Source: Minisyncoccota bacterium
Lineage (GTDB): Bacteria > Patescibacteriota > Minisyncoccia > Phycocordibacterales > UBA5272
Assembly (NCBI GenBank): GCA_043740125.1
Contig: JAYUCW010000039.1
Location: 1-33,171, forward strand
Direction: 5' to 3'
Length of the DNA stretch: 33,171 bases
The translations under genes and the position numbers were made by a program. Below the pieces are notes generated by a model. That model worked only from the letters and a program-made list of their open reading frames with translations. It did no database searches and had not been told where the DNA came from. This document shows positions 14,641 through 27,211 of the stretch, piece after piece. Numbering within the stretch: the first letter of the stretch is position 1; every line of letters begins with the position of its first letter.

Positions 14641-15876
14641 ATGAATACTTTTATTAATACTTTAGGAAGTCCTTTAGATATAGAAGTTGTTGAACGTAAA
14701 GGAATAGGTCACCCTGATTCCTTAGCAGATATAATTGCTGAGGATTTTTCAAACAAATATTCACTTTACTGTCTAGAACAATTTGGTGTTGTTCTGAACT
14801 ACTGGTTTGATAAGGTAACCATTTCAGGAGGGGTTTGCGATTTGGGTTTTGGTAGGTGTGATGTTTTAAAACCGATTACAATATATTTATTTGGTAGAGT
14901 TACTACAAAATTTGCTAATCATGAAATACCGTTTGAGGACATGTTTAAAGAAAGTTGTCTCAGTGTTTTTCGACAAATTTTTGGAGATACATATCCGAAA
15001 GAGTCTATTAATTTTTTCTTTGATGTGAACAGTGCGCTAGGTGCTGATCATGAAAAAACTTATTATTCTCCAAATTCTGTAGATTCACTAAAAACCTTTG
15101 AAAATTTTACTGCAAATGACACAGTTGTTTGTCATGGATACGCTCCCTATACAAAAACTGAAACTATTTGTATTGCAATTGAAAACTTTCTTAATTCAGA
15201 TTCATTTAAAAATAAATATAGAGCCACAGGCTGGGATATAAAAGTTTTAATAATTCGTGAAAGTAATTCATACAGAATAACAGTTTGTGTTCCTTTTATT
15301 GCTACTAAAACAAAATCTCATGAATTTTATCTAAATTCAAAAAATGAGATCAAAAAAGAGATAAGTGAATTTCTTCAAACTGGTGACTTTTTCTCCAGTA
15401 ATGATAGTTATGAAATCTACTTAAATACAAAGGATCGAGATAATCTCGCATATCTTGTTGCATATGGTTCGGCTGCTGATAAAGGAGATTATGGTGCTGT
15501 TGGAAGAGGAAACAGATACTCTGGTGTAATTTCAGTAAATCGTGGTACGAATGTTGAGGCTGTAAATGGAAAAAATTCTCGAAACCATAGTGGTAAGTTA
15601 TATACTGTTTTGTCTCATTCATTAGCTTCTTTTGTTTACAATAAAACAGGTGAACCATGTCAGGTTATTATTACTACGGATAACGGTAGACCACTTAGTG
15701 ATCCGACTATGGTTGTGGTTCATTTTGATAACAAAGGGTTTAACTTGAACCAAGGCGACGATTTAATAATTAAAAAACACATTAAGATGGTTTTTGATGA
15801 AATTGAAAAACTTTCTTCTCTTATAATATCTCGCAATCCAGTTACTGATTTTAAAAATATTTTTATCTATGCTTAA
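14641..15876 (+). CDS. archaeal-type S-adenosylmethionine synthetase (methionine adenosyltransferase)
   Basis: VERKGIGHPDSLAD, NDTVVCHGYAPYTKTE, DIKVL, YGSAADKGDYGAVGRGNRYSGVIS and GKNSRNHSGKLY align along the whole length with the archaeal MAT family as I recall it (Methanocaldococcus type). Confidence 0.8.
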   Translation: MNTFINTLGSPLDIEVVERKGIGHPDSLADIIAEDFSNKYSLYCLEQFGVVLNYWFDKVTISGGVCDLGFGRCDVLKPITIYLFGRVTTKFANHEIPFEDMFKESCLSVFRQIFGDTYPKESINFFFDVNSALGADHEKTYYSPNSVDSLKTFENFTANDTVVCHGYAPYTKTETICIAIENFLNSDSFKNKYRATGWDIKVLIIRESNSYRITVCVPFIATKTKSHEFYLNSKNEIKKEISEFLQTGDFFSSNDSYEIYLNTKDRDNLAYLVAYGSAADKGDYGAVGRGNRYSGVISVNRGTNVEAVNGKNSRNHSGKLYTVLSHSLASFVYNKTGEPCQVIITTDNGRPLSDPTMVVVHFDNKGFNLNQGDDLIIKKHIKMVFDEIEKLSSLIISRNPVTDFKNIFIYA

Positions 15877-16429
15877 AATAATATTAATTGGTGGAGGAGA
15901 TTTAACCGAAGAATCACTTTTAAAAATAAAAGAGGAAGCTACTTCAAGTTTTTTAAAATCAAAGAATATTAAGACAATGATTATCCCGTTTGCAAGATAC
16001 GAAGAGGATTGGGAAGCTGTATACACTAAAAATATAACCAAGTATGCCTGTGATGATTACAAGTATACTTTTATGTACCCGAGTAAAGATCATAATGCTT
16101 TTCTGGAACAGTTAAATGATTCAGAATTAGTAATTATCCCCGGAGGCAGTGAATTAAGCCTTATAAAAAATTTACCAGAGCTTTCAAGTGCTAATTTTGA
16201 TAATAAAGTAATAATTGCAACATCTGCTGGAACTAATTTTTTAGCTAGTTCATATTATTCTAACGATAGAGATGAGTTTGCTGTGGGTTCTAATATTTTA
16301 AAGATAAATACAATTTGTCATTTTAAAGATGATGTAATTGATAAGGTAAAAGTATTAACAGAATTAAATGGTCTACCAACTTTTACACTAAGAGAAGGTG
16401 ATTTTATTGTGTTATATGAAAGTAAATAA
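15869..16429 (+). CDS. peptidase S51 (PepE/cyanophycinase-fold) family hydrolase
   Basis: IIPFARYEEDWEAVYTK, LVIIPGGSELSLIKN, IIATSAGTNFLA (nucleophile Ser) and TICHF (His) parallel the E. coli PepE motifs. 8-nt overlap with the upstream gene. Confidence 0.6.
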   Translation: MLKIILIGGGDLTEESLLKIKEEATSSFLKSKNIKTMIIPFARYEEDWEAVYTKNITKYACDDYKYTFMYPSKDHNAFLEQLNDSELVIIPGGSELSLIKNLPELSSANFDNKVIIATSAGTNFLASSYYSNDRDEFAVGSNILKINTICHFKDDVIDKVKVLTELNGLPTFTLREGDFIVLYESK

Positions 16430-16919
16430 TTCCATTTTAAATTTTTTGGAGGTGTATTCTAAAAATTGTCATATTGATGCAATAGATAGTGTGGTTGTGC
16501 TTCTTAAACCTGATTATCCTGAAGATAAAAAAATGTCTTTTTTATCCTATTGTAATGAAAAGTCGTTAAAGATTATATTTAATGATTCTTCTATTTTAAA
16601 TAAAGAAAAAATTTTCGGTATTTATTATGATCTTTTTAGACAAAAAGACGATGATCTGAAGTACGGAATACTATGGAAATTAAAATTAATTGACTATTTA
16701 ACAAGTGGAAAGTCTAATTATTACCTAATTCAAGGTGTTAATGCGCAAGAATTATTAAATAATTATAAAAAAGTGATTAGATTGGAATACGATAAAATCA
16801 CAACACCAAAGGAAGTAATGAGTGAAGATGTTTTTTTTGAAAAAGTTATCAAGAATTTAATCCATGTTACAAATACAGAAGAATTTGTTCCAACTTGTTG
16901 GTTTTTATTTATAAAATAA
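16416..16919 (+). CDS. divergent nucleoside-diphosphate-kinase-like protein
   Basis: VVVLLKPDYP (NDK: FSIIKPNAV), LKIIF...KIFGIY, LIDYLTSGKSNYYLIQG (NDK: LVEFMTSGPIVVSVLEG) and NLIHVTNTEE (NDK: NGTHGSDSVE, His kept). Start set at ATG 16416, overlapping the previous stop by 14 nt. Confidence 0.45.
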   Translation: MKVNNSILNFLEVYSKNCHIDAIDSVVVLLKPDYPEDKKMSFLSYCNEKSLKIIFNDSSILNKEKIFGIYYDLFRQKDDDLKYGILWKLKLIDYLTSGKSNYYLIQGVNAQELLNNYKKVIRLEYDKITTPKEVMSEDVFFEKVIKNLIHVTNTEEFVPTCWFLFIK

Positions 16920-16922
16920 ACT

Positions 16923-18278
16923 ATGGAAAAAAGAGAAAAAATCTCCAAGAGTTTTGAAGATGGTAACGAGGAAGAGTGGGGAAGTATTTTTCGGTTAGGT
17001 GTTTCTCCTGTAAAAGCAAATTTTCGTATTGGTCCACTACGATCCCATCTATATAATTATGTTTATGCTAGTAATGAAAAATTAAAAAATAAAGATTCAA
17101 GGGTTTATTTTCGTGTTGATGATTCAAACCAAGAAAAAGGAGACAGAGAAATGTCTGAAAAACTTTTTTATTTTTTCTCTGAAACTCTCGGGATGGAATT
17201 TGATCAACAAGAAGACAACAGTCAGATGATTTTTCAATCCGAAAGGGTTGATTTATACCGTGAGTATTTAGAAAAATTATTTGATGTTGGTGTGGTTTTC
17301 TTAGATAAAGAATCTGGATTAACTCTTTTTGATATTGAAAAATTTATTGATATATATGGAGAAACAATACAATTTCATGATGTTGTAAGAGGTCAAGTAG
17401 TTTTAAAATTAAAGAAACTTTTAGATAAACAAAAGTTTTTTCCTTTAGTGAGGTCAAATGGTTCAGTGCTCTATCACTTAGCTTCTGTTGCAGACGATCA
17501 TCTTCTCGGTGTTACGCATGTTGTCCGTGGTGCGGATAAGCTATCGGTTGCACAATATCAAGAAATGGTAAGAATTGCACTTGATTTGGAGCCTAAAAAA
17601 TTTATGCACACACCTCTTATGTTGGATGATGAAGGTGGTTTATTAAAAGGCGATGTTTTATATGACTCTTTTATTAAAAAAGGTATTTTGCCTCAAGCGA
17701 TGTTGTCTTATATGATTTCATCAGGTTATGGTGACCCAGATATGATCTATGATTCAATAGAGGCTATTGTGGAAGATTTTGATTACAAAAAAGTAAGACA
17801 AAATAATGGTAAATTTGATTTTAAAAAACTAGTTAGTGTAAATAGAAAAATTTTGTCTAGTGTTAGTGATGAAGATTATTCTATTTCATTAAGACTATAT
17901 TCCGCAAAAATAAATAGAGAAGATATGCATTATGACCTTAATAATGAGATAGAGTTGGCACCTCTTTTTTCAAAACTAAAAATACCATTTGAAAAAACTG
18001 AAGTGTTTTATGATACTTTAGACAGGCCAGATTATTCTGGTATTAAAACCCTTGATATAGAAACTAGGAATGAACTTGATTTGCTTATTGAGGAATTTAA
18101 GCTTGATAGTTTTGATTATAAAGATTATTTTTATTCTTCAAATAAGAATAAGATAAGAGCCTTAAAATTTTTCCTTATTGGTGATTTACAGGTTTCTGGT
18201 GGTTTAGTTGAGATAACAGAATATTTGATTTCTAAAAATTTGATTTCTAAAAGATTAGAAATGTTAAGTGGTTTGTAG
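16923..18278 (+). CDS. glutamyl-tRNA-synthetase-like class I paralogue lacking HIGH and KMSKS signatures
   Basis: [26 protein letters not shown] versus [36 protein letters not shown] versus [36 protein letters not shown] versus [32 protein letters not shown] sits where KLSKR should be. Confidence 0.75.
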   Translation: [451 protein letters not shown]

Positions 18279-18333
18279 TCTGTGAATTTATATTGTCTTA
18301 TTTTGTTTTTTTGTTAATGTAGTATCTAAGAGT

Positions 18334-18519
18334 GTGGGGTAAAATTATTTATTCACCCAATTCTTCAGGTTTGGAATGTATGGAATCACCTCAGACTTCA
18401 TCAGTTCAGTTCTAACCCTTCACAGGGCTGCGATTTTAACAAGTCGGGAGCCCTAAGACTGCATTTTCAATAACCTGATTATAGGTTAAGAAAACGGGAG
18501 CATTGTCTGTTAGGGTTAC
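18334..18519 (-). pseudogene. decayed 3' gene remnant, copy 1 of 3
   Basis: Minus strand encodes VTLTDNAPVFLTYNQVIENAVLGLPTC*, then after a roughly 30-nt insertion and a stop, RVRTELMKSEVIPYIPNLKNWVNK*. Homologous to 19981-20151 and 26958-27074. Confidence 0.6.
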
Positions 18520-18593
18520 ATTGAAAAAAACTCTCAGAAATAAAAGATTTTTTCTTACCCTGTTTTGCCGTTTGAACTGATATACTATTTGAT

Positions 18594-19331
18594 ATGAAAA
18601 AAGTCTTATTCTTCGATATGTACCAGACACTTATCGATACACAAATAGGTGACAAAAAGGAAATTGTAGAAAATGCCTATAAACAAGTTTTTTCTCATTT
18701 CTTGATTGAGAAAGGTATTGAGGTAGATCAAGCTAATAATTTCCAGTCAAATTACAAAAAACTTCAAGATGAATTTTACACAAGCCACGACAAAGAAAAA
18801 GAACATCATGACTTTAAAGTAATACTTAAAAAAACTTTTTCAGACTATTATCAAATTGATATTGATGAGAAAGTTTTGGTAGAACTTATCTGGCAGTATA
18901 GAAAATTAACAAGAGGCGATACTAAACTATATCCTGACGTTAAAGATACTTTAGAGTTGCTCTCCCATGAGTATTCTCTGTATCTTGCTAGTTATACGCA
19001 AGCTTGCTATTCATTATTAGAAATAGAAGAGCTTGGAATTAAGGATTACTTTAAAGGGTTTATTTTTTCTTCTGATATTGGTTATAAAAAAATGAGTGAC
19101 GGATTTTATTTAAAGTGTATAGAAGTTTCAGGGGTGTCTCCAGAAGATTGTGTTATGGTTGGTGATAATAAACTTGAAGATATGTATATGGCAAATAAAA
19201 ATAAAATGTTGACTGTATGGATTAAAAATCCTATTACAGTTAATAATGTGTCTAACGAGCCAATTGCACCCACGAAAGAGTTGGACCTAAAAGATTTTAG
19301 TAAATTGGGTGAGTTACTCTCAACAATCTAA
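18594..19331 (+). CDS. HAD-superfamily hydrolase (subfamily IA-like, D-x-Y type motif I)
   Basis: Motif I FFDMYQTLID, motif II region LASYT, motif IV VMVGDNKLEDM. Confidence 0.7.
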   Translation: MKKVLFFDMYQTLIDTQIGDKKEIVENAYKQVFSHFLIEKGIEVDQANNFQSNYKKLQDEFYTSHDKEKEHHDFKVILKKTFSDYYQIDIDEKVLVELIWQYRKLTRGDTKLYPDVKDTLELLSHEYSLYLASYTQACYSLLEIEELGIKDYFKGFIFSSDIGYKKMSDGFYLKCIEVSGVSPEDCVMVGDNKLEDMYMANKNKMLTVWIKNPITVNNVSNEPIAPTKELDLKDFSKLGELLSTI

Positions 19332-19335
19332 CTAT

Positions 19336-19983
19336 ATGGAAAATTTCTTAAAAAGCAATAATCAAGAAGAGATAAAGCCTCCTAAGACTGAAAGAGATTC
19401 TCAGTTAAACCCTTCAATTGGAATTGAAGAGGCAGTAAAACTACAATCTGTTCTAGATAGGTATACAGATAAGAGAGTTCTTGTCGTCGGTCCTCCGGCT
19501 TCAGGTAAAAGCACCTTGCTTCAACATGTACCAAGTGGAGTTGATATGGATAATGCTCTTTTTGACACAATGCCAAAAAGAGAAAAAGATTTTGCACTTC
19601 AACGAGAGAAACCTTACATGCTTACAGACCCAACCTCTAAAGGTTATCAAAAAACAATTAAGTATGTGCAAAGAGAATTTAATCCAAATGATGAGCAGAA
19701 TGTTACTGATTTTCATTTGTCAGCAGACTTTCTGACCACGTATATAAATGCTCATACAAAAATTGAGGCAGGTAAACCATTCTTTGCAACGAACGTGATT
19801 GATTCTGATGTTATTGTTTATCTGAAACTATCTGATGAAGAATATAAAAAAAGATTAGAATTAAGAAATAAGACAAATAGACCGCAACAAGTAGAGAAAG
19901 CTTTTGCTATAAAAGGTGATATTGAAAAGCATATAGCTATTGCAAGAAATAATGGAGTGATAGTAGAAGAGCTTGAGATGTAG
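19336..19983 (+). CDS. P-loop NTPase, small nucleotide/nucleoside-kinase-like protein
   Basis: Walker A VVGPPASGKSTLL. Its size and the helical lid-like region suggest an AAA_33/adenylate-kinase-like fold. Start set at ATG 19336, just after the HAD stop. Confidence 0.55.
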   Translation: MENFLKSNNQEEIKPPKTERDSQLNPSIGIEEAVKLQSVLDRYTDKRVLVVGPPASGKSTLLQHVPSGVDMDNALFDTMPKREKDFALQREKPYMLTDPTSKGYQKTIKYVQREFNPNDEQNVTDFHLSADFLTTYINAHTKIEAGKPFFATNVIDSDVIVYLKLSDEEYKKRLELRNKTNRPQQVEKAFAIKGDIEKHIAIARNNGVIVEELEM

Positions 19984-20151
19984 TGTCACCCACTGTGGGG
20001 TAAACTAAACTTTCTCAGCCCATGCTCTCAAATTCGGCATATAAGGAATTACTTCACTCTTCATCAATTCAGTTCTAACCCTAGACAGGACTGCATTTTC
20101 AAAAACATGATTACATGTCAAGAAAAGGGAGCCTTGTCTATTAGGGTGCAC
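19981..20151 (-). pseudogene. decayed 3' gene remnant, copy 2 of 3
   Basis: Minus strand encodes CTLIDKAP, then a 1-nt deletion, then ...FLTCNHVFENAVLSRVRTELMKSEVIPYMPNLRAWAEKV*. Shares both end points with copies 1 and 3. Confidence 0.6.
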
Positions 20152-20156
20152 AAATT

Positions 20157-20183
20157 TAAAAATCTGACTAAAGTCAGTTTTTA
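20157..20183 (+). terminator. rho-independent terminator closing block 1
   Basis: AAAAATCTGAC-TAA-AGTCAGTTTTT. Confidence 0.55.
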
Positions 20184-20200
20184 AATGCTACACTATATCC

Positions 20201-20800
20201 ATGAAACTCATTTCAAAATATTTTCCACATTTACTTTTACTTGCGTACATTATTGAATTTATTGTTCTCGCTATTAAACCATACGATCGTGCTGTATGGT
20301 TCACAGAGAACTTCACTATCATTCCGATAGTTGCGATTCTTATTATTTTATATGTTTGTAAAGTGAGATTTTCTAATCTTGCATATGCGCTCATGAGTGT
20401 TCTTGTCTTCATGCATACCTATGGGGGACACTATACCTTTGCTCTCGCACCTTTTGATTGGTTCAATCACATGTTCGGCTTCCAAAGAAATATGTATGAT
20501 AGAGTTGCACACATGACGGTCGGATTTTATGCATACGCAATGATCGAAGCGCTTATTAGATATAAAGTGGTCAACCAAAAGTGGTTCGCATACTTCGCAT
20601 CGTTTATGATTATCCCAGCTATTGCAGCTTTTTATGAAATCTTCGAATGGCGATACGCTGTTAGCTCTGACCCAGCTGCAGGCTTAGCAGTTCTTGGTTC
20701 ACAAGGGGATATTTGGGATGCACAGAAGGATATGCTTATGGATACAATAGGGGGAGTAATAGGTACGGTGATGTACTTCATTTTTCGCCGAGAAAAATGA
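20201..20800 (+). CDS. YjdF-like (DUF2238) inner membrane protein
   Basis: WFTENF..., HTYGGHYTFALAPF and QRNMYDRVAHMTVGFYAYAMIE match the DUF2238 pattern from memory. Confidence 0.6.
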   Translation: MKLISKYFPHLLLLAYIIEFIVLAIKPYDRAVWFTENFTIIPIVAILIILYVCKVRFSNLAYALMSVLVFMHTYGGHYTFALAPFDWFNHMFGFQRNMYDRVAHMTVGFYAYAMIEALIRYKVVNQKWFAYFASFMIIPAIAAFYEIFEWRYAVSSDPAAGLAVLGSQGDIWDAQKDMLMDTIGGVIGTVMYFIFRREK

Positions 20801-20858
20801 TATCGAAATGATCACATTTCGATATAGACTTTATAAGCAAAGTAACGTATACATCTGT

Positions 20859-21542
20859 TTAAAGAAATTCTTCCGGAGCATCTGTTGCGAAAAAATACTT
20901 TTCACCACCAATCTCAAACATGAGTGTCTTAGCATGAAGCATAATACGAGGGGAGTCATGAGTGCTTCCATATGCTTTATCACCAATGATTGGATGTCCG
21001 ATATGAGACGTATGTGCACGGAGTTGATGAGTGCGACCAGTCTTTGGGGTGAGCTCTACCAGTGTGGTATTTTCTTTTTCATTTCGTGTGATAACTTTTA
21101 CCTCTGTGACTGCAGCACGTAATTCTCCTCGAGGGTTCGTAGGATTAACCTGTTGCTTATAGTCTTTTTTATTGCGGCCTAGTGGAGCGTCTATCGTGAA
21201 CTCGGTCTCGGTAATAATTCCTTCAACTAGAGCAAGGTACGTTTTCTTTGTGACGTGATTTCTGAATTGTGATTTTAGTTCATCAAACGTTTCTTTATTT
21301 TTTGAGATCACCATCACGCCAGAAGTATCACGGTCTAATTTGTGAACAATACCTCCAAGATTTATTGTTCGTTTATCTTGTAGGGTTACAGGGTTATCAA
21401 TACCAAAAATATCTGGTACATGTGTCATCAAAAAATCAATAAGTGTTTCTTCAGTGGAATAGTCAAAAGGATGGACCACGAGTCCAGAGGGTTTATTGAT
21501 AACCAAGATATTTGTATCCTCGAATATGACAGAGATAATCAT
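20859..21542 (-). CDS. RluA-family pseudouridine synthase (no S4 domain)
   Basis: VINKPSGLVVHP, HKLDRDTSGVMV (catalytic Asp motif) and GRTHQLRAH. Start trimmed to ATG 21542 because the longer ORF (to 21821) runs through tRNA-Leu(TAG). Confidence 0.85.
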   Translation of the reverse strand: MIISVIFEDTNILVINKPSGLVVHPFDYSTEETLIDFLMTHVPDIFGIDNPVTLQDKRTINLGGIVHKLDRDTSGVMVISKNKETFDELKSQFRNHVTKKTYLALVEGIITETEFTIDAPLGRNKKDYKQQVNPTNPRGELRAAVTEVKVITRNEKENTTLVELTPKTGRTHQLRAHTSHIGHPIIGDKAYGSTHDSPRIMLHAKTLMFEIGGEKYFFATDAPEEFL

Positions 21543-21591
21543 AAGTAGCACTCTACCATATTTTAGTGTATAATCTCTAGACAAATAAGAA

Positions 21592-21676
21592 GCCCAGGTG
21601 GTGAAATTGGTAGACACATCAGTCTTAGGAACTGATGCCGCAAGGCGTGAAGGTTCAAGTCCTTTCCTGGGCACCA
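21592..21676 (+). tRNA. tRNA-Leu (anticodon TAG), CCA encoded
   Basis: Acceptor GCCCAGG/CCTGGGC. Anticodon stem TCAGT/ACTGA with loop CTTAGGA. Long variable arm. T-arm GAAGG-TTCAAGT-CCTTT(C). TATAAT lies about 18 nt upstream. Confidence 0.9.
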
Positions 21677-21748
21677 CGAAAAAATTCCTTAGAAATAAGG
21701 GATTTTTTCTTACACTGTATTTTACGTTGGAACTGATATACTTTAACC

Positions 21749-22189
21749 ATGTTTCGTAAAGGAGTCTCTGCCTTAATAATAAACAAGAATCAAGAGTTTT
21801 TGCTTGTAAACTTACAGTCATTTAAAGTTCATTTTTTCGCTGTCCCTGGAGGTGGTTTAGAAGATGATGAATCACTTGAAGAAGCTGTATACCGTGAAGT
21901 ACAAGAAGAGGTTGGGATACATAAAGAATCCCTTAAATGTATTGGAGCAAGTAAACAACCTGTACAGTTTAAGTTAAATCTTAATCGTGATGGGAAAGCA
22001 TATGAAGGTTCAGAGAGATATTTTTTTGGCTTTAGATTTATAGGAAATGATGATGAAATAAAATTACAAGAGTCCGAAGTACGTTCATATAAATGGGTGT
22101 CATTCAATGATTTAAAAGGCTATCTCCTTTTTGATAATCAGCTAGAAGAAACATCAGAGAAAATTATAGAACTATTTCCCTTTTTGTAA
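21749..22189 (+). CDS. NUDIX hydrolase
   Basis: Nudix box GGGLEDDESLEEAVYREVQEEVGI. Confidence 0.85.
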   Translation: MFRKGVSALIINKNQEFLLVNLQSFKVHFFAVPGGGLEDDESLEEAVYREVQEEVGIHKESLKCIGASKQPVQFKLNLNRDGKAYEGSERYFFGFRFIGNDDEIKLQESEVRSYKWVSFNDLKGYLLFDNQLEETSEKIIELFPFL

Positions 22190-22234
22190 ACAGAAGTAAG
22201 TAACCAGTTATTGATTAATCTGATTACAAGAGTT

Positions 22235-22262
22235 TTGAAATCTATCTTTTTCTTGTTAGAAT
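22235..22262 (+). promoter_or_regulatory. candidate promoter of the six-gene sub-operon (TTGAAA - 16 nt - TGtTAGAAT extended -10)
   Basis: TTGAAA at 22235-22240 and TAGAAT at 22257-22262 preceded by TGT. ATG at 22269. Confidence 0.4.
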
Positions 22263-22268
22263 GGCACT

Positions 22269-22955
22269 ATGAAAGAAACTCCTGAAAGTAGACAAATATC
22301 AAAAGTTGATTCTGATATCAATAGTGTTGAGAATAATTTTTCTAAAATAAAAAATTCGACTCATTGTCCATTTGCAGATAAGTCAAATATACAATATTTT
22401 GAATCATGGAATAGATATAAAACTTTTGATGAAAATTTAGTAGCATTAGCAGAAGAACTAGTAGTATTTACTCATAAATGTGAAGAAGAAAAGATGGATG
22501 GTTTTATCTTTGAAGTTTCTGGCGACAATTTACCTATGAATTTGCAGGATTTGTCATCTTTGTTAAAACATGTACTTTTAAAATTAAATGAGCTAGACCC
22601 AAAAAAAGATGACTGTATGTCTAAAGATATTTCTGCGCCTGGTTGGCAGTTCGTATTTAATGGACAAAGAATTTTTATGATTACATTCGGATCTTTTTAT
22701 AGTGAAGATAGTCCAAGATACTCTATGAATAAAGATTCAACTTTTATTTTCATGCAACCCGAATCATCTTTCCATTTACATATCATAAATCCAGCAAAAT
22801 CACCCCAGACACTAAAATTAAAAGAAAAAATCAGAAGTGCTTTCGTAGAAGGAGGGAAACCTTATAATACTGAAATTGTCGATAGTCCATCTGACGCTAT
22901 TAAATACATTAAACCGCTTCATAAAAATGACTCACATATAGAGTGGTGGAAATAA
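22269..22955 (+). CDS. YqcI/YcgG-family protein (family of heme-dependent N-oxygenases such as GntA)
   Basis: STHCPFA near the N-terminus and GWQFVFNGQRIFMITFGSFYSEDSPRYSMNKDSTFIFMQPESSF match the YcgG C-terminal pattern W-x-F-x-F-x-G ... F-Q-P as I recall it. Confidence 0.55.
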   Translation: MKETPESRQISKVDSDINSVENNFSKIKNSTHCPFADKSNIQYFESWNRYKTFDENLVALAEELVVFTHKCEEEKMDGFIFEVSGDNLPMNLQDLSSLLKHVLLKLNELDPKKDDCMSKDISAPGWQFVFNGQRIFMITFGSFYSEDSPRYSMNKDSTFIFMQPESSFHLHIINPAKSPQTLKLKEKIRSAFVEGGKPYNTEIVDSPSDAIKYIKPLHKNDSHIEWWK

Positions 22956-22960
22956 ATTAT

Positions 22961-23920
22961 ATGCAAAATAACAAGATAGGAATAATAACAACTTCTGCTC
23001 CGATTAAAAAACTTGATATAGATATGGTGAGGTCAGGGTATACCTACCTATTAAAAAATGGTTTTGAAGTTTTTGAACACCCAAGCTGTCAATTGGAAAA
23101 TGGATATATGGCAGGGAATGTTGACGATAGAGTAGAAGCAATTCATGATTTGGTTAAAGATAAGACAGTTGATATTATAATGGCTTTTTGGGGCGGAGAC
23201 AATACGAATCAGCTTCTAGATAAGTTAGACTATGACTTAATAAAAAATAATCCAAAAATATTTATTGGCTACTCGGACACAAGTAGTTTATTAAATGCAA
23301 TTCATGTAAAAACTGGCCTAGTTACATACCTTGGGCCTGCCGTTATTACTTTTTGTAAACCTAACATTTTCCCGGAGAGTATTTTCTATTTTAAAAAAGT
23401 TGTGAGCGAACGAGGTCTAAAACAAACATTGGTACAACCAACACTTTACGCTAAAGACGCATACTACAAAAGAAGCGATAATCAAAGAATTATAGAGAGT
23501 AACGATGGTTGGAAGGTATTGAGACATGGAGTTGTTTCTGATAAAAAAATAGTTGCAATATGTTTGTCGATGTTACAATCATTACTCTCTACACCGTATG
23601 AACCAGATCTTAAAGGAAAAGTTCTTTTTTGTGAAATAGATGAATCCATAAAAATAGAAGCATTCGATAGGATGGTTGTACAGCTTAAACAAACGGGTAT
23701 TTTGGATACTATTGCTGCTTTTGTATTTAGTAAGGCGACAGATGAATCAAATATTAATGAAATAGATATAGTAAAAGTTTTGGAAGAGAACATAAAGAAT
23801 GATATTCCAATTATTTATAATTTTGACTGTGGTCACACGGATCCTGTTATCACTATTCCAGTCGGTGGTTATTGTGATATTAATACGAAGGACGGTGTTT
23901 CTATTTCTGTGAGTTATTAA
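22961..23920 (+). CDS. S66-family serine peptidase (LD-carboxypeptidase / MccF-like)
   Basis: IGIITTSAPI, FWGGDNTNQLL, FIGYSDTSSLL (nucleophile Ser), CEIDE and DCGHTDPVITIPVG (His) follow the LdcA/MccF layout. Confidence 0.75.
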   Translation: MQNNKIGIITTSAPIKKLDIDMVRSGYTYLLKNGFEVFEHPSCQLENGYMAGNVDDRVEAIHDLVKDKTVDIIMAFWGGDNTNQLLDKLDYDLIKNNPKIFIGYSDTSSLLNAIHVKTGLVTYLGPAVITFCKPNIFPESIFYFKKVVSERGLKQTLVQPTLYAKDAYYKRSDNQRIIESNDGWKVLRHGVVSDKKIVAICLSMLQSLLSTPYEPDLKGKVLFCEIDESIKIEAFDRMVVQLKQTGILDTIAAFVFSKATDESNINEIDIVKVLEENIKNDIPIIYNFDCGHTDPVITIPVGGYCDINTKDGVSISVSY

Positions 23921-23933
23921 CCTTATTGTAGGT

Positions 23934-25067
23934 ATGATGTTTAATGAAAACTTTGAAACAAAACCCTTTGAAAAGGCTTCCAACATCGAATCTTTAGATA
24001 GGGTAAAAAGTTCATTCCTAAATCAACTAAAATATGACGATTTTTCATTACAAGTTAACAATGGTTTAGGTGTACATGATGATGAGACATTACTATTTGC
24101 AAACTCTACAATGGCTACACATAAGAAGGAAATTATATCAGACTCATTACCTGAAAATGGTTTAGCAATTTCTCAGAAATGTTTACGTATGAGAAGTTTG
24201 GCACACTTTCTTGATAGAAGTTCTGATTTTGGTTTTAACTCATACTTTACAATGGTTGGTATGTTGTTTGGTGGAGAATCATCTAGAAATATTTTAAATC
24301 AAACTCTTACTTTTCTAACAAGTCAGGGTTTTGACATTAAAAGATTATTTATAAAAACTGGTTCAGACTGTAAGAATGTTAATAAATCAATTATTGGTTT
24401 TAGTGAGAAAAAAACTATTCAAGACTCCGAAAGCGAATCATATTATAAATGGGCTTATGGTATTGAAGGGGTTGTAGGAGAAGGTCTCACGTTTACATAC
24501 TTTTTTCCAGATGGTTCCTATAAAGACTTAGGTAACATTATTTGTGTAGTTGATGAAGCTTCAGGAAAAATTAAGGCCTGGGAATCTGGTTTTGGGGTTG
24601 AGACATTGATTGCTGTGAGAGACGGTAAGGATTTATTTGAAACTCACCCCATTTGGGATGTTCTCCAATATGAAAGAAATCCGGATTTAAAAAAAGTTGC
24701 AGATTCTGTTGTTTCTGTTATTGAAATAATAAGAGAAGGAGTGCTTATTGGTTCGAAGAAACAGGGGTATATTTTAAAAAAATTTCTTAATGTTATATAT
24801 TATATAAACAAAGACTTACATTTGGATCTAAGAAAGGTTGTAACTGAATACTGTGAGCATATGAAATATGAGAATGGAGAGACAATAGCAGAAACAATTA
24901 TTTCATACTTAGAACAAATTGATTCTTCTAAACAGAAGAACTTAGAAGCTTTTAAGAAATTCTTGAAGAGTAATGGAAACTTAACTGAGCGCCAGAAAAT
25001 AGATATAGCAAAAAGTTCCTTTTCATTGGAGCTTTCTGAAATTAAGGATTTATTACAATTAATATAA
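23934..25067 (+). CDS. alanyl-tRNA-synthetase catalytic-core-like class II paralogue (377 aa; no editing or C-Ala domains)
   Basis: DDETLLFANSTMATHKKEI versus NDPTLLFTNAGMNQFKDVF. SQKCLRMRS versus SQRCVRAGG. YFTMVGMLFGG versus FFEMLGNFSFG. ESGFGVETLIAV versus DTGMGLERIAAV. KKQGYILKKFLN versus ENRGYVLRRIIR. Confidence 0.7.
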   Translation: MMFNENFETKPFEKASNIESLDRVKSSFLNQLKYDDFSLQVNNGLGVHDDETLLFANSTMATHKKEIISDSLPENGLAISQKCLRMRSLAHFLDRSSDFGFNSYFTMVGMLFGGESSRNILNQTLTFLTSQGFDIKRLFIKTGSDCKNVNKSIIGFSEKKTIQDSESESYYKWAYGIEGVVGEGLTFTYFFPDGSYKDLGNIICVVDEASGKIKAWESGFGVETLIAVRDGKDLFETHPIWDVLQYERNPDLKKVADSVVSVIEIIREGVLIGSKKQGYILKKFLNVIYYINKDLHLDLRKVVTEYCEHMKYENGETIAETIISYLEQIDSSKQKNLEAFKKFLKSNGNLTERQKIDIAKSSFSLELSEIKDLLQLI

Positions 25068-25094
25068 CTCATAATATGGTATTATTCTAGTAAT

Positions 25095-25901
25095 ATGAAA
25101 GAAGAAATTTTAAATCTCAATTACACTGACTTTGTCGGCTTCATTAATCAATGGAATGTCCTCCCTGGTGCACATGTAACACTTTCAAAATGGGTAACTT
25201 TTAGTGGAGTTAACGCCGATTCACATATACTAGAACTTGCATGCACTTCTGGCTTTTCATCTCGAGAAATTGCAATTATGACTGGGTGTGCTGGTGTTGG
25301 TATTGATATTTCTGCACCATCAGTTGAAGCCGCTATTTTGAATAAGAAGGTATATGCACCAGGTATTAAAATTACTTATGAAGTTGCAGACGGTCATATT
25401 TATGAACCAGAAGAAAAATTTTCACACGTAGTAGTTGGCGCAGCTCTAAAATTTTTTGGTAACCAAAAAGAAGTAACTGAGAGAATAGTTTCAAAATATC
25501 TTAAAGATGGCGGTTTTTTGTTAGCTTCACCTTTTTTTGCTGTGAGGACAGTTCCTCAGGAAGTTATTGATAGGGCTCGTGAGGTTTTTGGTATTACAAT
25601 AACAACAGAATCATATAAGGAGGCAATGAAGGCATACTCAGATTTTGAAATCATATATGAAGATAAGTGTGATTTGATTGAGGAGACAGAAGAGGAGCTG
25701 AGTGTTTACTGTACAGCAACAGTAGCTAGAGCTGCAGATTTCCACGGAATAGTGGATAATGAAGTAAAGCAAGTTATGTACGCAAGACTACTAGAGATAA
25801 GAAGAATGACTAATGTTCTTAGAGGATATCAAAACTACACAGTACTGGTATTGAGGTATAGAAAAAGTGTGTACCCAAATAGGTATGTGGAATTATTTTA
25901 A
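25095..25901 (+). CDS. class I SAM-dependent methyltransferase
   Basis: Motif I ILELACTSGFSS, followed by GIDIS and a downstream acidic/aromatic pattern typical of the Rossmann methyltransferase fold. Confidence 0.7.
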   Translation: MKEEILNLNYTDFVGFINQWNVLPGAHVTLSKWVTFSGVNADSHILELACTSGFSSREIAIMTGCAGVGIDISAPSVEAAILNKKVYAPGIKITYEVADGHIYEPEEKFSHVVVGAALKFFGNQKEVTERIVSKYLKDGGFLLASPFFAVRTVPQEVIDRAREVFGITITTESYKEAMKAYSDFEIIYEDKCDLIEETEEELSVYCTATVARAADFHGIVDNEVKQVMYARLLEIRRMTNVLRGYQNYTVLVLRYRKSVYPNRYVELF

Positions 25902-25906
25902 AAGTA

Positions 25907-26407
25907 ATGATTTTAACAGGCAAAGAAATTACACGAGAAGTTTCTAGCGGGAATATTTCTATTACCCCTTTTTTTCTTGATCAGATTAATCCTAATAGTT
26001 ACAATTATAGACTTGGGGAGACACTTAAAGTTTTCTCACAATTTGATGGAGTTAAGTCACTTTTTGAAGAAGTAAGGATTCCCAAAGAAGGGTATGTTCT
26101 TGAGCCAAATAAAATGTATTTAAGTACTACCAGCGAAGAGATAGGTAGTAGCGTATATGCAATGTCTCTTATCGGTAGAAGTTCGATGGGGCGGCTTGGG
26201 CTTTTTCTCCAGGTTTCAGCGGATCTCGGACATACAACTTCATGCCATAATTGGACGCTTGAATTAGTTGCTTCACATTCTATAAGGGTTTATCCTTGGA
26301 TGGTAATCGGGCAGGTTTCTTTTTGGGAGAATAAAGGAGAGCATAATGACTACGATGGTTTTTATGGAAATAAAAATAATGTCCAAGAATCAATTATTTT
26401 TATATAG
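25907..26407 (+). CDS. dCTP deaminase (Dcd/dUTPase-fold) family protein, copy 1
   Basis: MILTGKEI...ISITPF...NPNSYNYRLG, GRSSMGRLGLFLQVSA and WTLELV (catalytic Glu kept) parallel the E. coli Dcd motifs. Confidence 0.75.
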   Translation: MILTGKEITREVSSGNISITPFFLDQINPNSYNYRLGETLKVFSQFDGVKSLFEEVRIPKEGYVLEPNKMYLSTTSEEIGSSVYAMSLIGRSSMGRLGLFLQVSADLGHTTSCHNWTLELVASHSIRVYPWMVIGQVSFWENKGEHNDYDGFYGNKNNVQESIIFI

Positions 26408-26414
26408 TAAAATT

Positions 26415-26933
26415 ATGATTTTAACAGGAAATGAAATTAAATCAGAGGTAGGTTTGGGTAAGATAAAGATTGAGCCTTTTGATATAAATCATTGTACAAC
26501 TAATTCGTACGATTTATGTCTTGGTAATGTTCTTATTCAATATATCGAGGATGTCTTAGACCCTAAAAAAGAAAATAAATATCGAGAATTGGTTATACCT
26601 AAAGAGGGTATGATTTTGCCAAAAAATTCTTTCTTTCTTGGTTCTTCTAAAGAGAAAATTGGAAGTAATTTTTATGTTCCGATGATACATGCTAAGTCAG
26701 GAGTGGCAAGACTCGGATTATTTGTGCATGTCACAGCAGACCTTGTTGACATTGGTTACTATGGAGAAATAACTTTCCAGTTGTATGCTACCTTGCCTGT
26801 AAAAATTTATCCCGGAATGAAATTAGGACAAGTTTCTTTTTGGGTGCCAAAGGGTGAGATTAATCTATATAATGGTAAATATCAGAATAGTACTGGTCCA
26901 CAAGTTTCTAAAACCTATCAAGATTTTAGTTAA
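26415..26933 (+). CDS. Dcd-fold paralogue, copy 2, with altered catalytic positions
   Basis: MILTGNEI...IKIEPF...TTNSYDLCLG, then AKSGVARLGLFVHVTA (GRSS to AKSG) and ITFQLY (Glu to Gln). Start set at ATG 26415, 8 nt after copy 1. Confidence 0.7.
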   Translation: MILTGNEIKSEVGLGKIKIEPFDINHCTTNSYDLCLGNVLIQYIEDVLDPKKENKYRELVIPKEGMILPKNSFFLGSSKEKIGSNFYVPMIHAKSGVARLGLFVHVTADLVDIGYYGEITFQLYATLPVKIYPGMKLGQVSFWVPKGEINLYNGKYQNSTGPQVSKTYQDFS

Positions 26934-26957
26934 TTTTTATTTAGTAGTATATTATAT

Positions 26958-27074
26958 AGTGTCACAGACTGTGGGGTAAATCACGCTTTTTCTACCCAAG
27001 CTCGCAGATTCGGTATGTAAGGAATCACCTCACTTTTCATCAATTCAGTTCTAACATTGTCTATTAGGGTGCAC
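26958..27074 (-). pseudogene. decayed 3' gene remnant, copy 3 of 3 (internal in-frame deletion)
   Basis: Minus strand encodes CTLIDN-VRTELMKSEVIPYIPNLRAWVEKA* in one frame. About 75 nt is missing relative to copy 2, with the breakpoint right after GTTCTAAC. Confidence 0.6.
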
Positions 27075-27079
27075 AACAT

Positions 27080-27112
27080 AAAAAATGAGATGTCGAAAGA
27101 CATCCATTTTTT
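27080..27112 (+). terminator. rho-independent terminator closing block 2
   Basis: GAGATGTC-GAAA-GACATC(C) followed by ATTTTTT. Confidence 0.55.
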
Positions 27113-27211
27113 AGTTGTGCCCGGGAAGAAAGTGACCTGTTGATTAGTAAATCACGTCGGGAGACGCTAGGAATTTCGTAGCAATATCTTTTCTTTTTTA
27201 TATAAATTATG

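What the first reader, a model, noticed from the sequence alone, without database searches (positions are those of the whole stretch)
18334..27074. Three decayed copies of one minus-strand gene 3' end punctuate the cargo blocks and carry a protein-coding substitution pattern
Copies at 18334-18519, 19981-20151 and 26958-27074 each lie between the stop codon of a plus-strand operon and its terminator. Read on the minus strand, they encode ...TL(T/I)D(N/K)APVFLT(Y/C)N(Q/H)V(I/F)ENAVL..RVRTELMKSEVIPY(I/M)PNL(R/K)xWxxK*. Across the last 20 codons, most differences are third-position or fully synonymous, including Ser TCT versus AGT, Leu CTG versus TTG and Arg AGA versus CGA. This indicates independent evolution as real coding sequence before decay. 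Each copy is broken differently: copy 1 has a roughly 30-nt insertion plus a stop, copy 2 a 1-nt deletion, and copy 3 a roughly 75-nt in-frame deletion. All three are truncated at the same 5' point and share the same downstream boundary (CCCCAC just past the stop). No intact parent gene is in the window. Inference: these are displaced 3' ends left by repeated site-specific integration or cassette exchange at the 3' end of one target gene family, or the conserved end of an uncharacterised mobile unit that delivers the cargo blocks.
Basis: partly seen in the sequence, partly recalled or inferred. Interest (0 to 1): 0.78.

Follow-up and report, generated by a model that had tools for sequence, protein, structure and literature searches.

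The report
Mini-gene cap on tRNA-linked gene cassettes
The three repeats are copies of a previously undescribed ~130-base module, found widely in ultra-small "CPR" bacteria, that carries a real 31-codon mini-gene and sits at the far end of blocks of accessory genes inserted just after tRNA genes. They are not the broken tail of a larger gene.

Summary
The three copies are real. Read on the minus strand they show a true protein-coding substitution pattern.

They are not displaced 3' ends of a larger gene. No protein among 1.84 billion cluster representatives carries this peptide, apart from 11 short spurious ORF calls over the same element.

About 85 copies exist in Saccharibacteria, Paceibacteria and other CPR (Patescibacteria) assemblies. 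All start at the same point (…TGTGC) and stop at nearly the same codon. They encode [M/L]C.V[LI][ED][ND]VRTELMKS.V.PY[IV]PNLS.WA.KV.*.

Window copy 3 is the intact canonical form. Copies 1 and 2 are a rare variant with a 75-nt insertion, and both are broken.

Neither strand has a conserved RNA fold.

The module (RM) lies downstream of, and co-oriented with, tRNA genes. It ends in …GCACA, which resembles a tRNA acceptor 3' end, and is followed by a bidirectional terminator.

Related genomes carry different cargo, or none, in the same tRNA-Leu slots. Cargo blocks are AT-richer than their flanks and begin with a shared left module (hairpin plus promoter).

No recombinase is nearby.

Best reading: RM is the conserved right end of integrase-less cassettes that pile up at tRNA 3' ends. 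How the mini-gene is expressed, and what moves the cassettes, is unknown.

The parts
14447..14529 (+). tRNA-Leu(TAA); seed of cassette array A (its 3' end …CCCTGGGCACA is the insertion point)
   Evidence: ARAGORN and Rfam. The same tRNA is followed by different cargo in L005/L018, L030 and L013.
14530..14640 (+). Left end of cassette A1 (type LM2): terminator hairpin, then the box AGTTCTAAC (14575-14583), then an AT-rich spacer up to the first cargo ATG
   Evidence: Sequence. AGTTCTAAC match. Similar modules follow tRNA-like ends in L005 and L019.
14641..18278 (+). Cargo A1: archaeal-type SAM synthetase, S51 peptidase, a 173-aa ORF and a GluRS-like protein. GC 0.29-0.35.
   Evidence: Pfam; composition.
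18317..18520 (-). RM copy 1: long-form module, decayed. It has a 31-nt internal duplication, in-frame stops and a degraded terminus (…TTAGGGTTACA).
18521..18593 (+). Left module LM1 of cassette A2: GAAA-loop hairpin, TTTTTCTTAC, GAACTGATATACT, then 7 nt before the ATG of the first cargo gene
   Evidence: Repeat D4; alignment A5; regex survey.
18594..19983 (+). Cargo A2: HAD hydrolase and a P-loop kinase-like protein
   Evidence: Pfam.
19978..20152 (-). RM copy 2: long-form module with a 1-nt deletion. About 89-92% identical to the module plus hairpin in L005, while both flanks are unrelated.
20153..20185 (.). Bidirectional terminator hairpin after copy 2
   Evidence: 20164-20177 on both strands; shared with L005.
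21592..21676 (+). tRNA-Leu(TAG); seed of cassette B
   Evidence: Orthologous tRNA in L030 and L015.
21677..21748 (+). Left module LM1 of cassette B
   Evidence: (D4). Absent after the orthologous tRNA in L030 and L015.
21749..26933 (+). Cargo B: NUDIX, YqcI/YcgG, LD-carboxypeptidase, AlaRS-like N-domain protein, methyltransferase and two dCTP-deaminase-like proteins. GC 0.31-0.34.
   Evidence: Pfam; composition.
26954..27075 (-). RM copy 3: canonical short-form module. On the plus strand it reads ATATAGTGT box, GGGGTAAAT, the antisense of the mini-ORF, the core TTCATCAATTCAGTTCTAAC, and the terminus …TTAGGGTGCACA.
26981..27079 (-). Intact mini-ORF MLCTLIDNVRTELMKSEVIPYIPNLRAWVEKA* (32 codons plus stop). 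Its first codons overlap the outer arm of the following hairpin.
   Evidence: Family-wide coding signature.
27076..27118 (.). Bidirectional terminator hairpin H. In L030 it is conserved, but there it is preceded by a tRNA-Leu(TAG) 3'-end copy instead of RM.
27118..27183 (.). Partial tRNA-like unit (TLU): acceptor-5'-like TGCCCGGG, a hairpin, then an inverted T-arm-like segment. It is the resident distal border of the tRNA-Leu(TAG) slot.

Best explanation
The repeats are copies of a conserved ~125-130-nt module (RM; ~200 nt in the long variant). It forms the distal (right) end of integrase-less gene cassettes that accumulate immediately downstream of tRNA genes in CPR/Patescibacteria.

SHOWN
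- A cassette consists of a left module (terminator-type hairpin plus an outward promoter-like box, with the first cargo ATG 7 nt after the -10), then cargo genes on the tRNA's strand, then RM.
- RM ends in …G(C/T)GCACA, which resembles a tRNA acceptor 3' end.
- The next unit (another cassette, a small tRNA-like unit, or resident DNA) begins with a hairpin right after that end.
- RM contains a genuine protein-coding mini-ORF of 31-32 codons on the opposite strand. The ORF starts at the module's terminus and reads inward.
- RM also contains a 20-nt core (GTTAGAACTGAATTGATGAA) that is conserved even at synonymous sites.
- RM carries a conserved ATATAGTGT box just beyond the ORF's stop.

INFERRED
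- The tRNA-like terminus recreates the insertion point. New cassettes can therefore enter at the tRNA or at an RM end and push older ones outward. This gives the window's array: tRNA-Leu(TAA) | A1-copy 1 | A2-copy 2, and tRNA-Leu(TAG) | B-copy 3.
- The 20-nt core is probably a binding site for a recombinase encoded elsewhere.
- The ATATAGTGT box is probably a plus-strand -10 that drives an antisense transcript across the mini-ORF to the terminator. The ORF is therefore insulated and silenced in the integrated state. It would be expressed only in another state, or at low level.
- The peptide's function is unknown. A cassette-retention or recombination accessory role is my guess.
- Copies 1 and 2 are older long-form ends that have decayed. 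Copy 3 is intact.
For: Family and coding
- 14 true copies in CPR MAGs by exact 20-mer. 61 more matches in metagenomes. 85 nhmmer copies in 72 sources.
- The minus-strand frame is the only open frame. It has a common start point and a stop within about 3 codons. Substitutions are conservative (L/I/V, D/E, N/D) and Ser switches between TCN and AGY.
- Outside the pattern-constrained codons, entropy is lowest at codon position 2 and highest at position 3.
- pN/pS is 0.48, against 0.66-1.4 in the other five frames.

No parent gene and no RNA fold
- (no parent). (no consensus fold). (no Rfam match).

tRNA linkage
- tRNA-Tyr is upstream and co-oriented in 17 of 17 pairs (12 loci).
- tRNA-Leu or tRNA-Asp play that role in other lineages.
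- Overall 35 of 58 tRNA-RM pairs are upstream and on the same strand.

Insertion evidence
- L030 and L015 keep RluA-tRNA-Leu(TAG) and the right-hand anchor (hairpin H/TLU, or window 27195-27251). Both lack LM1, cargo B and RM.
- The tRNA-Leu(TAA) slot holds four different cargo sets in the window, L005/L018, L030 and L013. Each ends in RM.
- GC is 0.29-0.35 in the blocks against 0.38-0.42 in the flanks.

Shared left module
- LM1 follows a tRNA, an RM or a TLU 3' end in the window (twice), L030, L001 and L005.

Recent spread
- The RM body is 96-99% identical in L002, L027 and L053/L069, while flanks are at background identity.
- Copy 2 plus its hairpin is about 89-92% identical to L005, with unrelated flanks.

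Nucleotide-level constraint
- Third-position entropy is 0.34 and 0.10 at the Val and Arg codons of the core, against 1.5-1.9 at other codons.

Box and terminators
- ATATAGTGT is conserved in 29-35 of 35 copies, 15-16 nt before GGGTAAAAT.
- Terminators are bidirectional.
Against: - No integrase, transposase or other recombinase is in the window. None is enriched among 148 neighbouring proteins.
- No circular or junction form was found. There are no copies in viral, phage or plasmid collections.
- RM's terminal resemblance to the local tRNA is only about 5-9 nt. It does not co-vary with the local tRNA's acceptor sequence. It is not a classical displaced tRNA fragment.
- The right-hand anchor of the L030 'empty site' is short: 57 nt at 88% identity.
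- In three deep lineages RM sits 42-53 nt upstream of rpmG without a hairpin. That looks like a stable resident gene.
- The hairpin after copy 2 travels with RM (L005), whereas the hairpin after copy 1 travels with the following cassette. The exact junction is therefore not fixed.
- No promoter for the mini-ORF is evident, and 11 of about 72 copies have TGG instead of a start codon before Cys.
- Most comparators are MAGs or metagenome contigs, so misassembly is possible (for example L018).
Confidence: 0.5

Rival explanations
1. RM is a resident, vertically inherited small-protein gene. Its ancestral place is between tRNA-Tyr and rpmG, divergent from rpmG. It is not part of any mobile unit. Cargo turns over next to it because tRNA-proximal regions are general recombination hot spots, for example by homologous exchange after natural transformation using the tRNA and RM as conserved arms. 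Extra copies arise by segmental duplication.
For: - RM lies 42-53 nt upstream of rpmG in L012, L043 and L071. The L33 proteins of these loci are only 40-82% identical, so the adjacency is old.
- tRNA-Tyr is upstream in 12 loci, and ClpB-tRNA-Tyr context recurs.
- In the RGLVDD subfamily the left flank (tRNA-Asp side) is 96-97% conserved together with RM.
- L019 shows a plain tandem segmental duplication that includes RM.
- DprA is present in the window.
- No recombinase is nearby.
Against: - In the tRNA-Leu(TAG) slot, RM is absent from both comparators that lack cargo B. RM therefore arrived with the cargo there.
- Cassettes share a conserved left module placed exactly at tRNA-like 3' ends.
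- RM is 96-99% identical in unrelated flanks.
- In most contexts the ORF is directly preceded by a bidirectional terminator, which is odd for a resident expressed gene.
Confidence: 0.27
2. RM is a selfish type I toxin-antitoxin-like module. A small peptide is encoded on one strand. A fully overlapping antisense RNA, with its own -10 (TATAGT) and an intrinsic terminator, is encoded on the other. The module is multi-copy and prone to decay. Its position at cassette ends would reflect stabilisation of the arrays.
For: - The ORF is 31-32 codons.
- Copies are clustered, multi-copy and intergenic, and some are degenerate.
- A conserved -10-like box lies at a fixed distance beyond the stop and points across the ORF.
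- A terminator lies on that strand right after the ORF's start.
- The ORF is insulated from upstream transcription.
Against: - The peptide is charged and amphipathic with no hydrophobic stretch, unlike most type I toxins (sequence).
- No promoter or Shine-Dalgarno sequence is visible for the ORF. SD-like sequences occur in only 22 of 78 copies and come from the terminator stems.
- No conserved RNA structure exists on either strand.
- No -35 accompanies the box.
- There is no PADLOC, Pfam or NCBIfam hit.
- There are no expression data.
Confidence: 0.12
3. One reading: the copies are decaying 3' ends of one host protein-coding gene, displaced by repeated site-specific integration into that gene.
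For: - Coding-type substitutions.
- Copies 1 and 2 are broken.
- Copies sit at block boundaries.
Against: - No longer protein carries the peptide in 1.84 billion representatives.
- About 80 copies share the same start and stop and stay open across CPR phyla.
- Upstream of the start there is always non-homologous DNA, usually a terminator.
Confidence: 0.03
4. The conserved sequence is a structured non-coding RNA or cis-regulatory 3'UTR/leader element on the plus strand, and the coding look is coincidental.
For: - Its position between a gene and its terminator.
- Its own -10-like box.
- In some loci it lies just upstream of rpmG.
Against: - RNAalifold gives 0 pairs and 0 kcal/mol on both strands for 35 diverse copies.
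- There is no Rfam match, even at E<=1.
- One minus-strand frame is kept open with conservative amino-acid replacements and a conserved stop.
Confidence: 0.03

Closest known systems
tRNA-seeded genomic islands built by repeated integration (Islander-type islands; tycheposons of Prochlorococcus, bioRxiv 10.1101/2020.12.28.424599)
   Same: - Accessory genes accumulate immediately 3' of tRNA genes, co-oriented in tandem.
- Newer units push older ones outward.
- Content differs between close relatives at the same tRNA.
- Blocks are compositionally distinct.
- Degenerate older ends remain inside the island (for the paper; here).
   Different: - Those elements carry a tyrosine recombinase. They are bounded by partial tRNA copies of about 40 nt.
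- Here no recombinase is present.
- Here the distal border is not a tRNA fragment. It is a conserved module with its own mini-ORF, and only its last 5-9 nt resemble a tRNA end.
Integron gene cassettes with attC sites (from established knowledge)
   Same: - Small co-oriented cassettes, each capped at its 3' end by a conserved recombination-associated repeat next to a palindrome.
- Cassettes lack their own recombinase.
- Cassettes form arrays.
   Different: - No IntI, attI or Pc is present.
- The RYYYAAC…GTTRRRY boxes are not generally present in the hairpins (by inspection).
- Cassettes here carry their own promoter-like left module.
- Arrays are seeded by tRNA genes.
- The repeat encodes a peptide.
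Multi-copy type I toxin-antitoxin repeats such as Ibs/Sib and Ldr/Rdl of E. coli (from memory)
   Same: - Repeated ~130-200-nt intergenic modules.
- Each has a <60-codon ORF and a possible fully overlapping antisense transcription unit.
- Some copies decay.
   Different: - The peptide is not hydrophobic.
- No toxin promoter is evident.
- No RNA structure is conserved.
- Copies are tied to cassette ends and tRNA slots.
Accretion of integrase-less cis-mobilisable elements (CIMEs) next to ICEs in streptococci (from memory)
   Same: Tandem arrays of att-flanked units without recombination genes, presumed to be mobilised in trans.
   Different: - Those arrays are bounded by true att repeats of a known integrase that sits in a neighbouring ICE.
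- No such partner is seen here.

Membership tests
tRNA-targeted integrative genomic island | Lies immediately 3' of an intact tRNA gene, in a fixed orientation | tested here: met
   - Window blocks start at 14530 (after tRNA-Leu TAA) and 21677 (after tRNA-Leu TAG).
- tRNA-Tyr is upstream and co-oriented in 17 of 17 pairs elsewhere.
tRNA-targeted integrative genomic island | Distal border is a direct repeat copying the tRNA 3' part (typically tens of nt) | tested here: not met
   - RM ends share only about 5-9 nt (GGG(T)GCAC / CGCACA) with the tRNA end. They do not track the local acceptor sequence.
- Exact 14-21-nt copies occur only in the separate tRNA-like units.
tRNA-targeted integrative genomic island | Encodes its own integrase | tested here: not met
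   Pfam scans of all window ORFs and of 148 neighbours found no integrase, recombinase or transposase enrichment.
tRNA-targeted integrative genomic island | Presence/absence polymorphism with defined borders in related genomes, plus deviant composition | tested here: met
   - L030 and L015 lack LM1, cargo B and RM at the orthologous tRNA-Leu(TAG).
- Four different cargo sets occupy the tRNA-Leu(TAA) slot.
- GC is 0.29-0.35 in the blocks against about 0.40 in the flanks.
Integron cassette / attC | IntI integrase with attI and Pc upstream of the array | tested here: not met
   No tyrosine recombinase is in the window or in the neighbourhoods.
Integron cassette / attC | attC with R'' RYYYAAC … R' GTTRRRY flanking an imperfect palindrome | tested here: not met
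   - Hairpins are ordinary A-tract/T-tract terminators of unrelated sequence.
- AAC…GTT is present in a few copies (window copy 3, L013) but not in general. This was by inspection only.
Type I toxin-antitoxin | Small ORF (<60 codons) under coding selection | tested here: met
Type I toxin-antitoxin | Hydrophobic, membrane-active toxin | tested here: not met
   The consensus xCxVLExVRTELMKSxVxPYIPNLSxWAxKVx is charged and amphipathic.
Type I toxin-antitoxin | Antisense RNA with its own promoter and terminator, and a toxin mRNA promoter | tested here: inconclusive
   - A -10-like ATATAGTGT box and a terminator exist on the plus strand.
- No -35 accompanies the box, and no ORF promoter is seen.
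- No transcript data are available.
Displaced 3' end of a protein-coding integration target | An intact gene exists whose C-terminus is this peptide | tested here: not met
   There were 11 hits in 1.84 billion representatives, all short ORF calls over the element. Word-index searches were empty.
Structured ncRNA / riboregulator | Conserved secondary structure with covariation, or an Rfam match | tested here: not met
   RNAalifold found 0 pairs on both strands. Rfam found nothing.
MITE | Terminal inverted repeats and target-site duplication | tested here: not met
   - Only TGTG…CACA (4-6 nt) is shared between the two ends.
- No duplication appears at the borders of the near-identical copies L002, L027 and L053.
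Xer/dif-exploiting element (IMEX, pdif module) | 28-31-bp site with two ~11-bp arms in partial dyad symmetry around a 6-8-bp spacer, acted on by XerC/D | tested here: inconclusive
   - GGTGCGC-N11-ATGTTA in RM recalls E. coli dif (recalled from memory). The two arms show no dyad symmetry.
- No Xer gene or chromosomal dif was examined.
- GC skew shows no terminus in the window.

The most novel reading that the evidence does not exclude
CPR bacteria possess a phylum-spanning gene-cassette system of a new type. Cassettes have a defined left module and a right module (RM). RM mimics a tRNA 3' end, so each insertion regenerates the target. Each RM carries a translated 31-residue peptide paired with an antisense transcript that keeps it silent while integrated. 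The small, highly structured tRNA-like units (TLUs) found in the same slots are the 'empty' form of the system. Mobilisation depends on a recombinase encoded elsewhere, or on a so far unrecognised enzyme.
Probability: 0.25. Interest if true: 0.85.

Novelty: new variant of a known kind. Interest (0 to 1): 0.66.

Why it matters
CPR/Patescibacteria have tiny genomes and few recognisable mobile elements. How they exchange accessory genes is poorly understood.

A conserved, unannotated module that caps variable gene blocks at tRNA genes across several CPR phyla would give three things:
- a sequence tag for locating their flexible gene pool;
- a concrete handle for finding the recombination machinery;
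- a new small-protein family of about 31 aa that gene callers miss.

The idea can be tested in the few cultured Saccharibacteria. It may also offer natural 'landing pads' for genetic tools.

Tried and rejected
- Parent-gene search. The consensus peptide and the intact long form found nothing in the word-indexed 5.8-billion-protein search. The exhaustive HMMER scan gave only spurious short ORFs. Cluster look-up shows them as singletons, either 'hypothetical' or unnamed.
- Known families. Pfam, NCBIfam, PADLOC and PDB gave no match to the peptide.
- RNA. Rfam gave nothing at gathering threshold or at E<=1. RNAalifold found no structure on either strand.
- tmRNA-like reading (tRNA-like unit plus an ORF without a conserved start). 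ARAGORN finds no tmRNA. Most copies lack a TLU. TLU acceptor sequences copy the neighbouring tRNA (Tyr, Leu or Cys) rather than tRNA-Ala. Rejected.
- TnpB/omega-RNA or group II intron 5' end (GUGYG after a terminator). The element is far too short, has no fold and has no associated protein. Rejected.
- SSV-type split integrase. It would require a full-length gene in free elements, and none exists in viral, plasmid or phage collections.
- Integron attC, MITE and dif-like site: see the membership tests.
- L018's apparent upstream extension of the ORF. It is an antisense ORF in a GC-rich segment that encodes a real gene on the other strand.
- Replication terminus/dif idea. GC skew stays positive across the window.
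- Circular contigs. None were found.
- Homology between cargo of different genomes at the same slot. None. This was used as evidence of turnover.
- Literature. Searches found no description of this element.

Full report
WHAT IS IN THE WINDOW

Three homologous segments lie at 18317-18520, 19978-20152 and 26954-27075. They share an invariant core, TTCATCA(A/G)TTCAGTTCTAAC. The 9-mer AGTTCTAAC occurs four times in the window against 0.37 expected by chance.

On the minus strand the three copies read …VRTELMKSEVIPY(I/M)PNL(K/R).W..K*. Copies 2 and 3 differ by 2, 3 and 10 bases at codon positions 1, 2 and 3. They show 9 synonymous and 3 non-synonymous codon changes.

The window is chromosomal. It encodes ParB, RelA/SpoT, TopA, DprA, IF-2, RbfA and five tRNAs, and no integrase.

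THE FAMILY

An exact search for the 20-mer in one genome per species returned 14 true copies. All are in Candidate Phyla Radiation MAGs: Saccharibacteria, Paceibacteria, Zambryskiibacteria and unclassified lineages. A codon-degenerate pattern found 61 further matches in 59 metagenome contigs and none in viral contigs. An nhmmer profile counts 85 copies in 72 sources, with up to three per locus.

Nearly all copies keep one minus-strand frame open. They share a start point (…NTG TGC…) and a stop within about three codons of one another. They encode xC.V[LI][ED][ND]VRTELMKS.V.PY[IV]PNLS.WA.KV.*.

Several measures support coding:
- In codons that the search pattern did not constrain, variability is lowest at position 2 and highest at position 3.
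- Replacements are conservative: L/I/V, D/E, N/D.
- Leu varies at positions 1 and 3 only.
- The other two minus-strand frames carry about four stops each.
- pN/pS is 0.48 in this frame, against 0.66-1.4 in the other five.

The first 14 copies were found without any codon assumption, and they show the same picture.

Window copy 3 is an intact 32-codon ORF and represents the canonical form. Copies 1 and 2 belong to a rare long variant with 75 extra nucleotides directly after AGTTCTAAC. This variant occurs in 4 of about 85 copies. Of those four, only the L005 copy is intact.

NOT A GENE TAIL AND NOT AN RNA

An exhaustive HMMER scan of 1.84 billion cluster representatives gave 11 hits. All are 31-203-aa ORF calls lying over the element, with unrelated upstream sequence. 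No longer parent protein exists.

Pfam, NCBIfam, PADLOC and PDB are silent on the peptide.

RNAalifold on 35 diverse copies predicts no pair on either strand. Rfam has nothing.

ANATOMY OF THE MODULE (RM), READ ON THE PLUS STRAND

1. An ATATAGTGT box, conserved in 29-35 of 35 copies. It lies 15-16 nt before GGGTAAAAT. It fits a -10 hexamer (TATAGT) on the plus strand better than one on the minus strand. The generic scan also flagged a minus-strand TTTACC-18-TATAAT.
2. The antisense of the ORF.
3. The 20-nt core. Its Val and Arg codons are almost invariant even at third positions: entropy 0.34 and 0.10, against 1.5-1.9 at other codons. This indicates a nucleotide-level constraint on top of the coding constraint.
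4. A terminus, …GTA(C/A)(N)GCGCACA or …TTAGGGTGCACA, which resembles a tRNA acceptor 3' end.

In most copies a bidirectional A-tract/hairpin/T-tract terminator follows at once. Its sequence is unrelated between copies. As a result the ORF's start codon abuts, or lies within, the hairpin's outer arm. The codon before Cys is TTG, ATG, GTG or CTG in about two-thirds of copies and TGG (the complement of CCA) in 11.

CONTEXT

RM lies downstream of, and on the same strand as, tRNA genes:
- tRNA-Tyr in 12 loci (17 of 17 pairs);
- tRNA-Leu in the Saccharibacteria-like group;
- tRNA-Asp in one subfamily.

In three deep lineages RM sits 42-53 nt upstream of rpmG. Among 148 neighbouring proteins there is no recombinase. 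ClpB, which is next to tRNA-Tyr, is the commonest neighbour.

Many loci also contain 150-290-nt tRNA-like units (TLUs). Their ends are inverted and direct copies (14-21 nt) of the adjacent tRNA's T-arm and acceptor 3' end. The window's TLU at 14245-14396 folds with z = -7.0 on the plus strand and -6.3 on the minus strand.

EVIDENCE THAT RM CAPS INSERTED CASSETTES

- Composition. GC is 0.29-0.35 from 14.6 to 20 kb and from 21.7 to 27 kb. It is 0.38-0.42 in the flanks and in the DUF2238-RluA-tRNA-Leu(TAG) segment between the two stretches.
- The tRNA-Leu(TAG) slot. L030 and L015 retain RluA-tRNA-Leu(TAG) at 69-80% identity over 0.8-1.5 kb. They also retain the distal anchor: hairpin H plus TLU in L030, and window 27195-27251 in L015. 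Neither has the left module, cargo B or RM. In L030 hairpin H is preceded by a TLU ending in the tRNA's own 3' sequence. In the window it is preceded by copy 3. Window 21677-27075 therefore behaves as an inserted or replaced unit whose right end is RM.
- The tRNA-Leu(TAA) slot. This slot holds SAM synthetase…GluRS-like | copy 1 | HAD-kinase | copy 2 in the window. It holds a 404+251-aa pair in L005 and L018, a P-loop kinase in L030, and a 566-aa gene in L013. Each set ends in RM.
- A shared left module. LM1 is about 75 nt long. It consists of a GAAA-loop hairpin, TTTTTCTTAC, GAACTGATATACT, then 7 nt before the first cargo ATG. It follows the 3' end of tRNA-Leu(TAG), of copy 1, of tRNA-Leu(TAA) (L030), of tRNA-Tyr (L001) and of a TLU (L005). 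A tRNA end, a TLU end and an RM end are thus interchangeable as the point after which a cassette starts. L019 shows the same hairpin following either a TLU end or an RM end.
- Recent spread. RM bodies are 96-99% identical in L002, L027 and L053/L069, while both flanks are at background identity. Copy 2 plus its hairpin is about 89-92% identical to L005, with unrelated flanks.

INTERPRETATION

The best-supported reading (confidence about 0.5) is that RM is the conserved distal end of integrase-less cassettes that accrete at tRNA 3' ends.

Shown:
- the module and its coding signature;
- the tRNA linkage;
- the turnover of blocks;
- the shared left and right modules.

Inferred:
- the tRNA-like terminus regenerates the target, allowing tandem accretion;
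- the 20-nt core is a protein-binding site;
- the ATATAGTGT box drives an antisense transcript;
- the ORF is silent when integrated.

The mobilising enzyme and the peptide's function are unknown.

The main rival (about 0.27) is that RM is a resident small gene, ancestrally between tRNA-Tyr and rpmG, beside which cargo turns over. Absence of RM from the cargo-free tRNA-Leu(TAG) slots argues against this for the window. A type I TA-like reading (about 0.12) is compatible with the cassette model, but it fails the hydrophobic-toxin and promoter criteria.

COMPARISON WITH KNOWN SYSTEMS

The logic matches tRNA-seeded islands built by successive integrations, as described for Prochlorococcus tycheposons. 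There, incoming elements push older ones into the island and leave partial tRNAs.

The window's system differs in three ways:
- it has no integrase;
- it has no long tRNA-derived repeat at the border;
- it has a conserved border module that encodes a peptide.

It resembles integron arrays in having recombinase-less capped cassettes, but it fails the attC and IntI criteria. I found no description of the element in the searchable literature.

I therefore rate it a new variant of a known kind, with a sizeable chance that the mechanism is new.

CAVEATS

- Most comparators are MAGs or short metagenome contigs.
- One right-hand anchor is only 57 nt long.
- Hairpins sometimes travel with RM and sometimes with the next unit.
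- No expression or excision data exist.
- The degenerate search pattern biases the codons it covers. These were excluded from the periodicity argument.

Noticed in passing
window 14245-14396; window 27118-27183; L019 3897-4112, 4159-4441, 4746-5028; L022 3393-3553; L030 2360-2240 (rc): tRNA-like units (TLUs) of 150-290 nt sit right after tRNA, RM or TLU terminators. The left end is an inverted copy of the neighbouring tRNA's acceptor and T-arm 3' part, interrupted by a conserved tetraloop hairpin (for example AAAGCCAACTGCTTGGCTTT). The right end is a direct copy of the same tRNA end. The window's TLU folds very stably (z = -7.0 on the plus strand, -6.3 on the minus). There is no Rfam or ARAGORN match. 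TLUs occupy the same slots as the gene cassettes.
   Followed up: partly
window 14575-14583, 18408-18416, 20071-20079, 27047-27055: The box AGTTCTAAC occurs in all three RM cores. It also occurs directly after the terminator that follows tRNA-Leu(TAA). LM2-type left ends in L005 and L019 carry near-copies in the same place. It is also the exact point where the 75-nt long-form insertion sits. That insertion is itself an inverted copy of the RM terminus plus a terminator-like hairpin. The box may be a recombination or insertion hot spot. Unexplained.
   Followed up: partly
L012 2432-2739; L043 9826-9502 (rc); L071 8311-7983 (rc): In three divergent lineages the module lies 42-53 nt upstream of rpmG (ribosomal protein L33), with no intervening hairpin. 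tRNA-Tyr is upstream and tRNA-Trp is downstream. This may be the ancestral location.
   Followed up: partly
window 14641-26933: The cargo is unusual. It includes an archaeal-type SAM synthetase, a GluRS-like paralogue, a protein with only an AlaRS N-terminal domain, an MccF-like LD-carboxypeptidase, an S51 peptidase, NUDIX, HAD, P-loop kinase-like proteins, a methyltransferase and two tandem dCTP-deaminase-like genes. This set suggests nucleotide or aminoacyl chemistry.
   Followed up: no
window 4746-5113: A 96-aa GIY-YIG ORF (4789-5079, minus strand) is flanked by 33-nt inverted repeats that are 94% complementary (4746-4778 / 5081-5113). Each repeat contains its own small hairpin. It looks like a miniature mobile GIY-YIG unit.
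   Followed up: no
window 29663-30700: A 218-aa ORF with only an HTH_38 domain (29736-30392) is flanked by 25-nt inverted repeats that are 92% complementary. It may be an IS30-like remnant.
   Followed up: no
window 31245-31284 and 32855-32894: 40-nt inverted repeats (80% complementary), rich in AGTCTACAG units, bracket the IF-2 gene.
   Followed up: no
L019 4494-4625 and 5085-5195: Two consensus promoters (TTGACA-17-TATAAT and TTGACA-17-GATATAAT-like) drive about 100-nt hairpin-rich units that end in terminators. These units lie immediately upstream of left-truncated RM copies. They may be small RNA genes. There was no Rfam match at E<=1.
   Followed up: no
L018 553-1436: An RM copy is cut exactly at its core by a GC-rich segment that encodes a 282-aa solute-binding-like protein on the other strand. 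This is either a foreign insertion or a chimeric assembly. It produced the only 'long' protein hit (P0002, an antisense ORF).
   Followed up: partly
window 20859-21821 (minus strand): The mechanical ORF for the RluA-type pseudouridine synthase runs across tRNA-Leu(TAG) (21592-21676). The true start must lie downstream of the tRNA.
   Followed up: no
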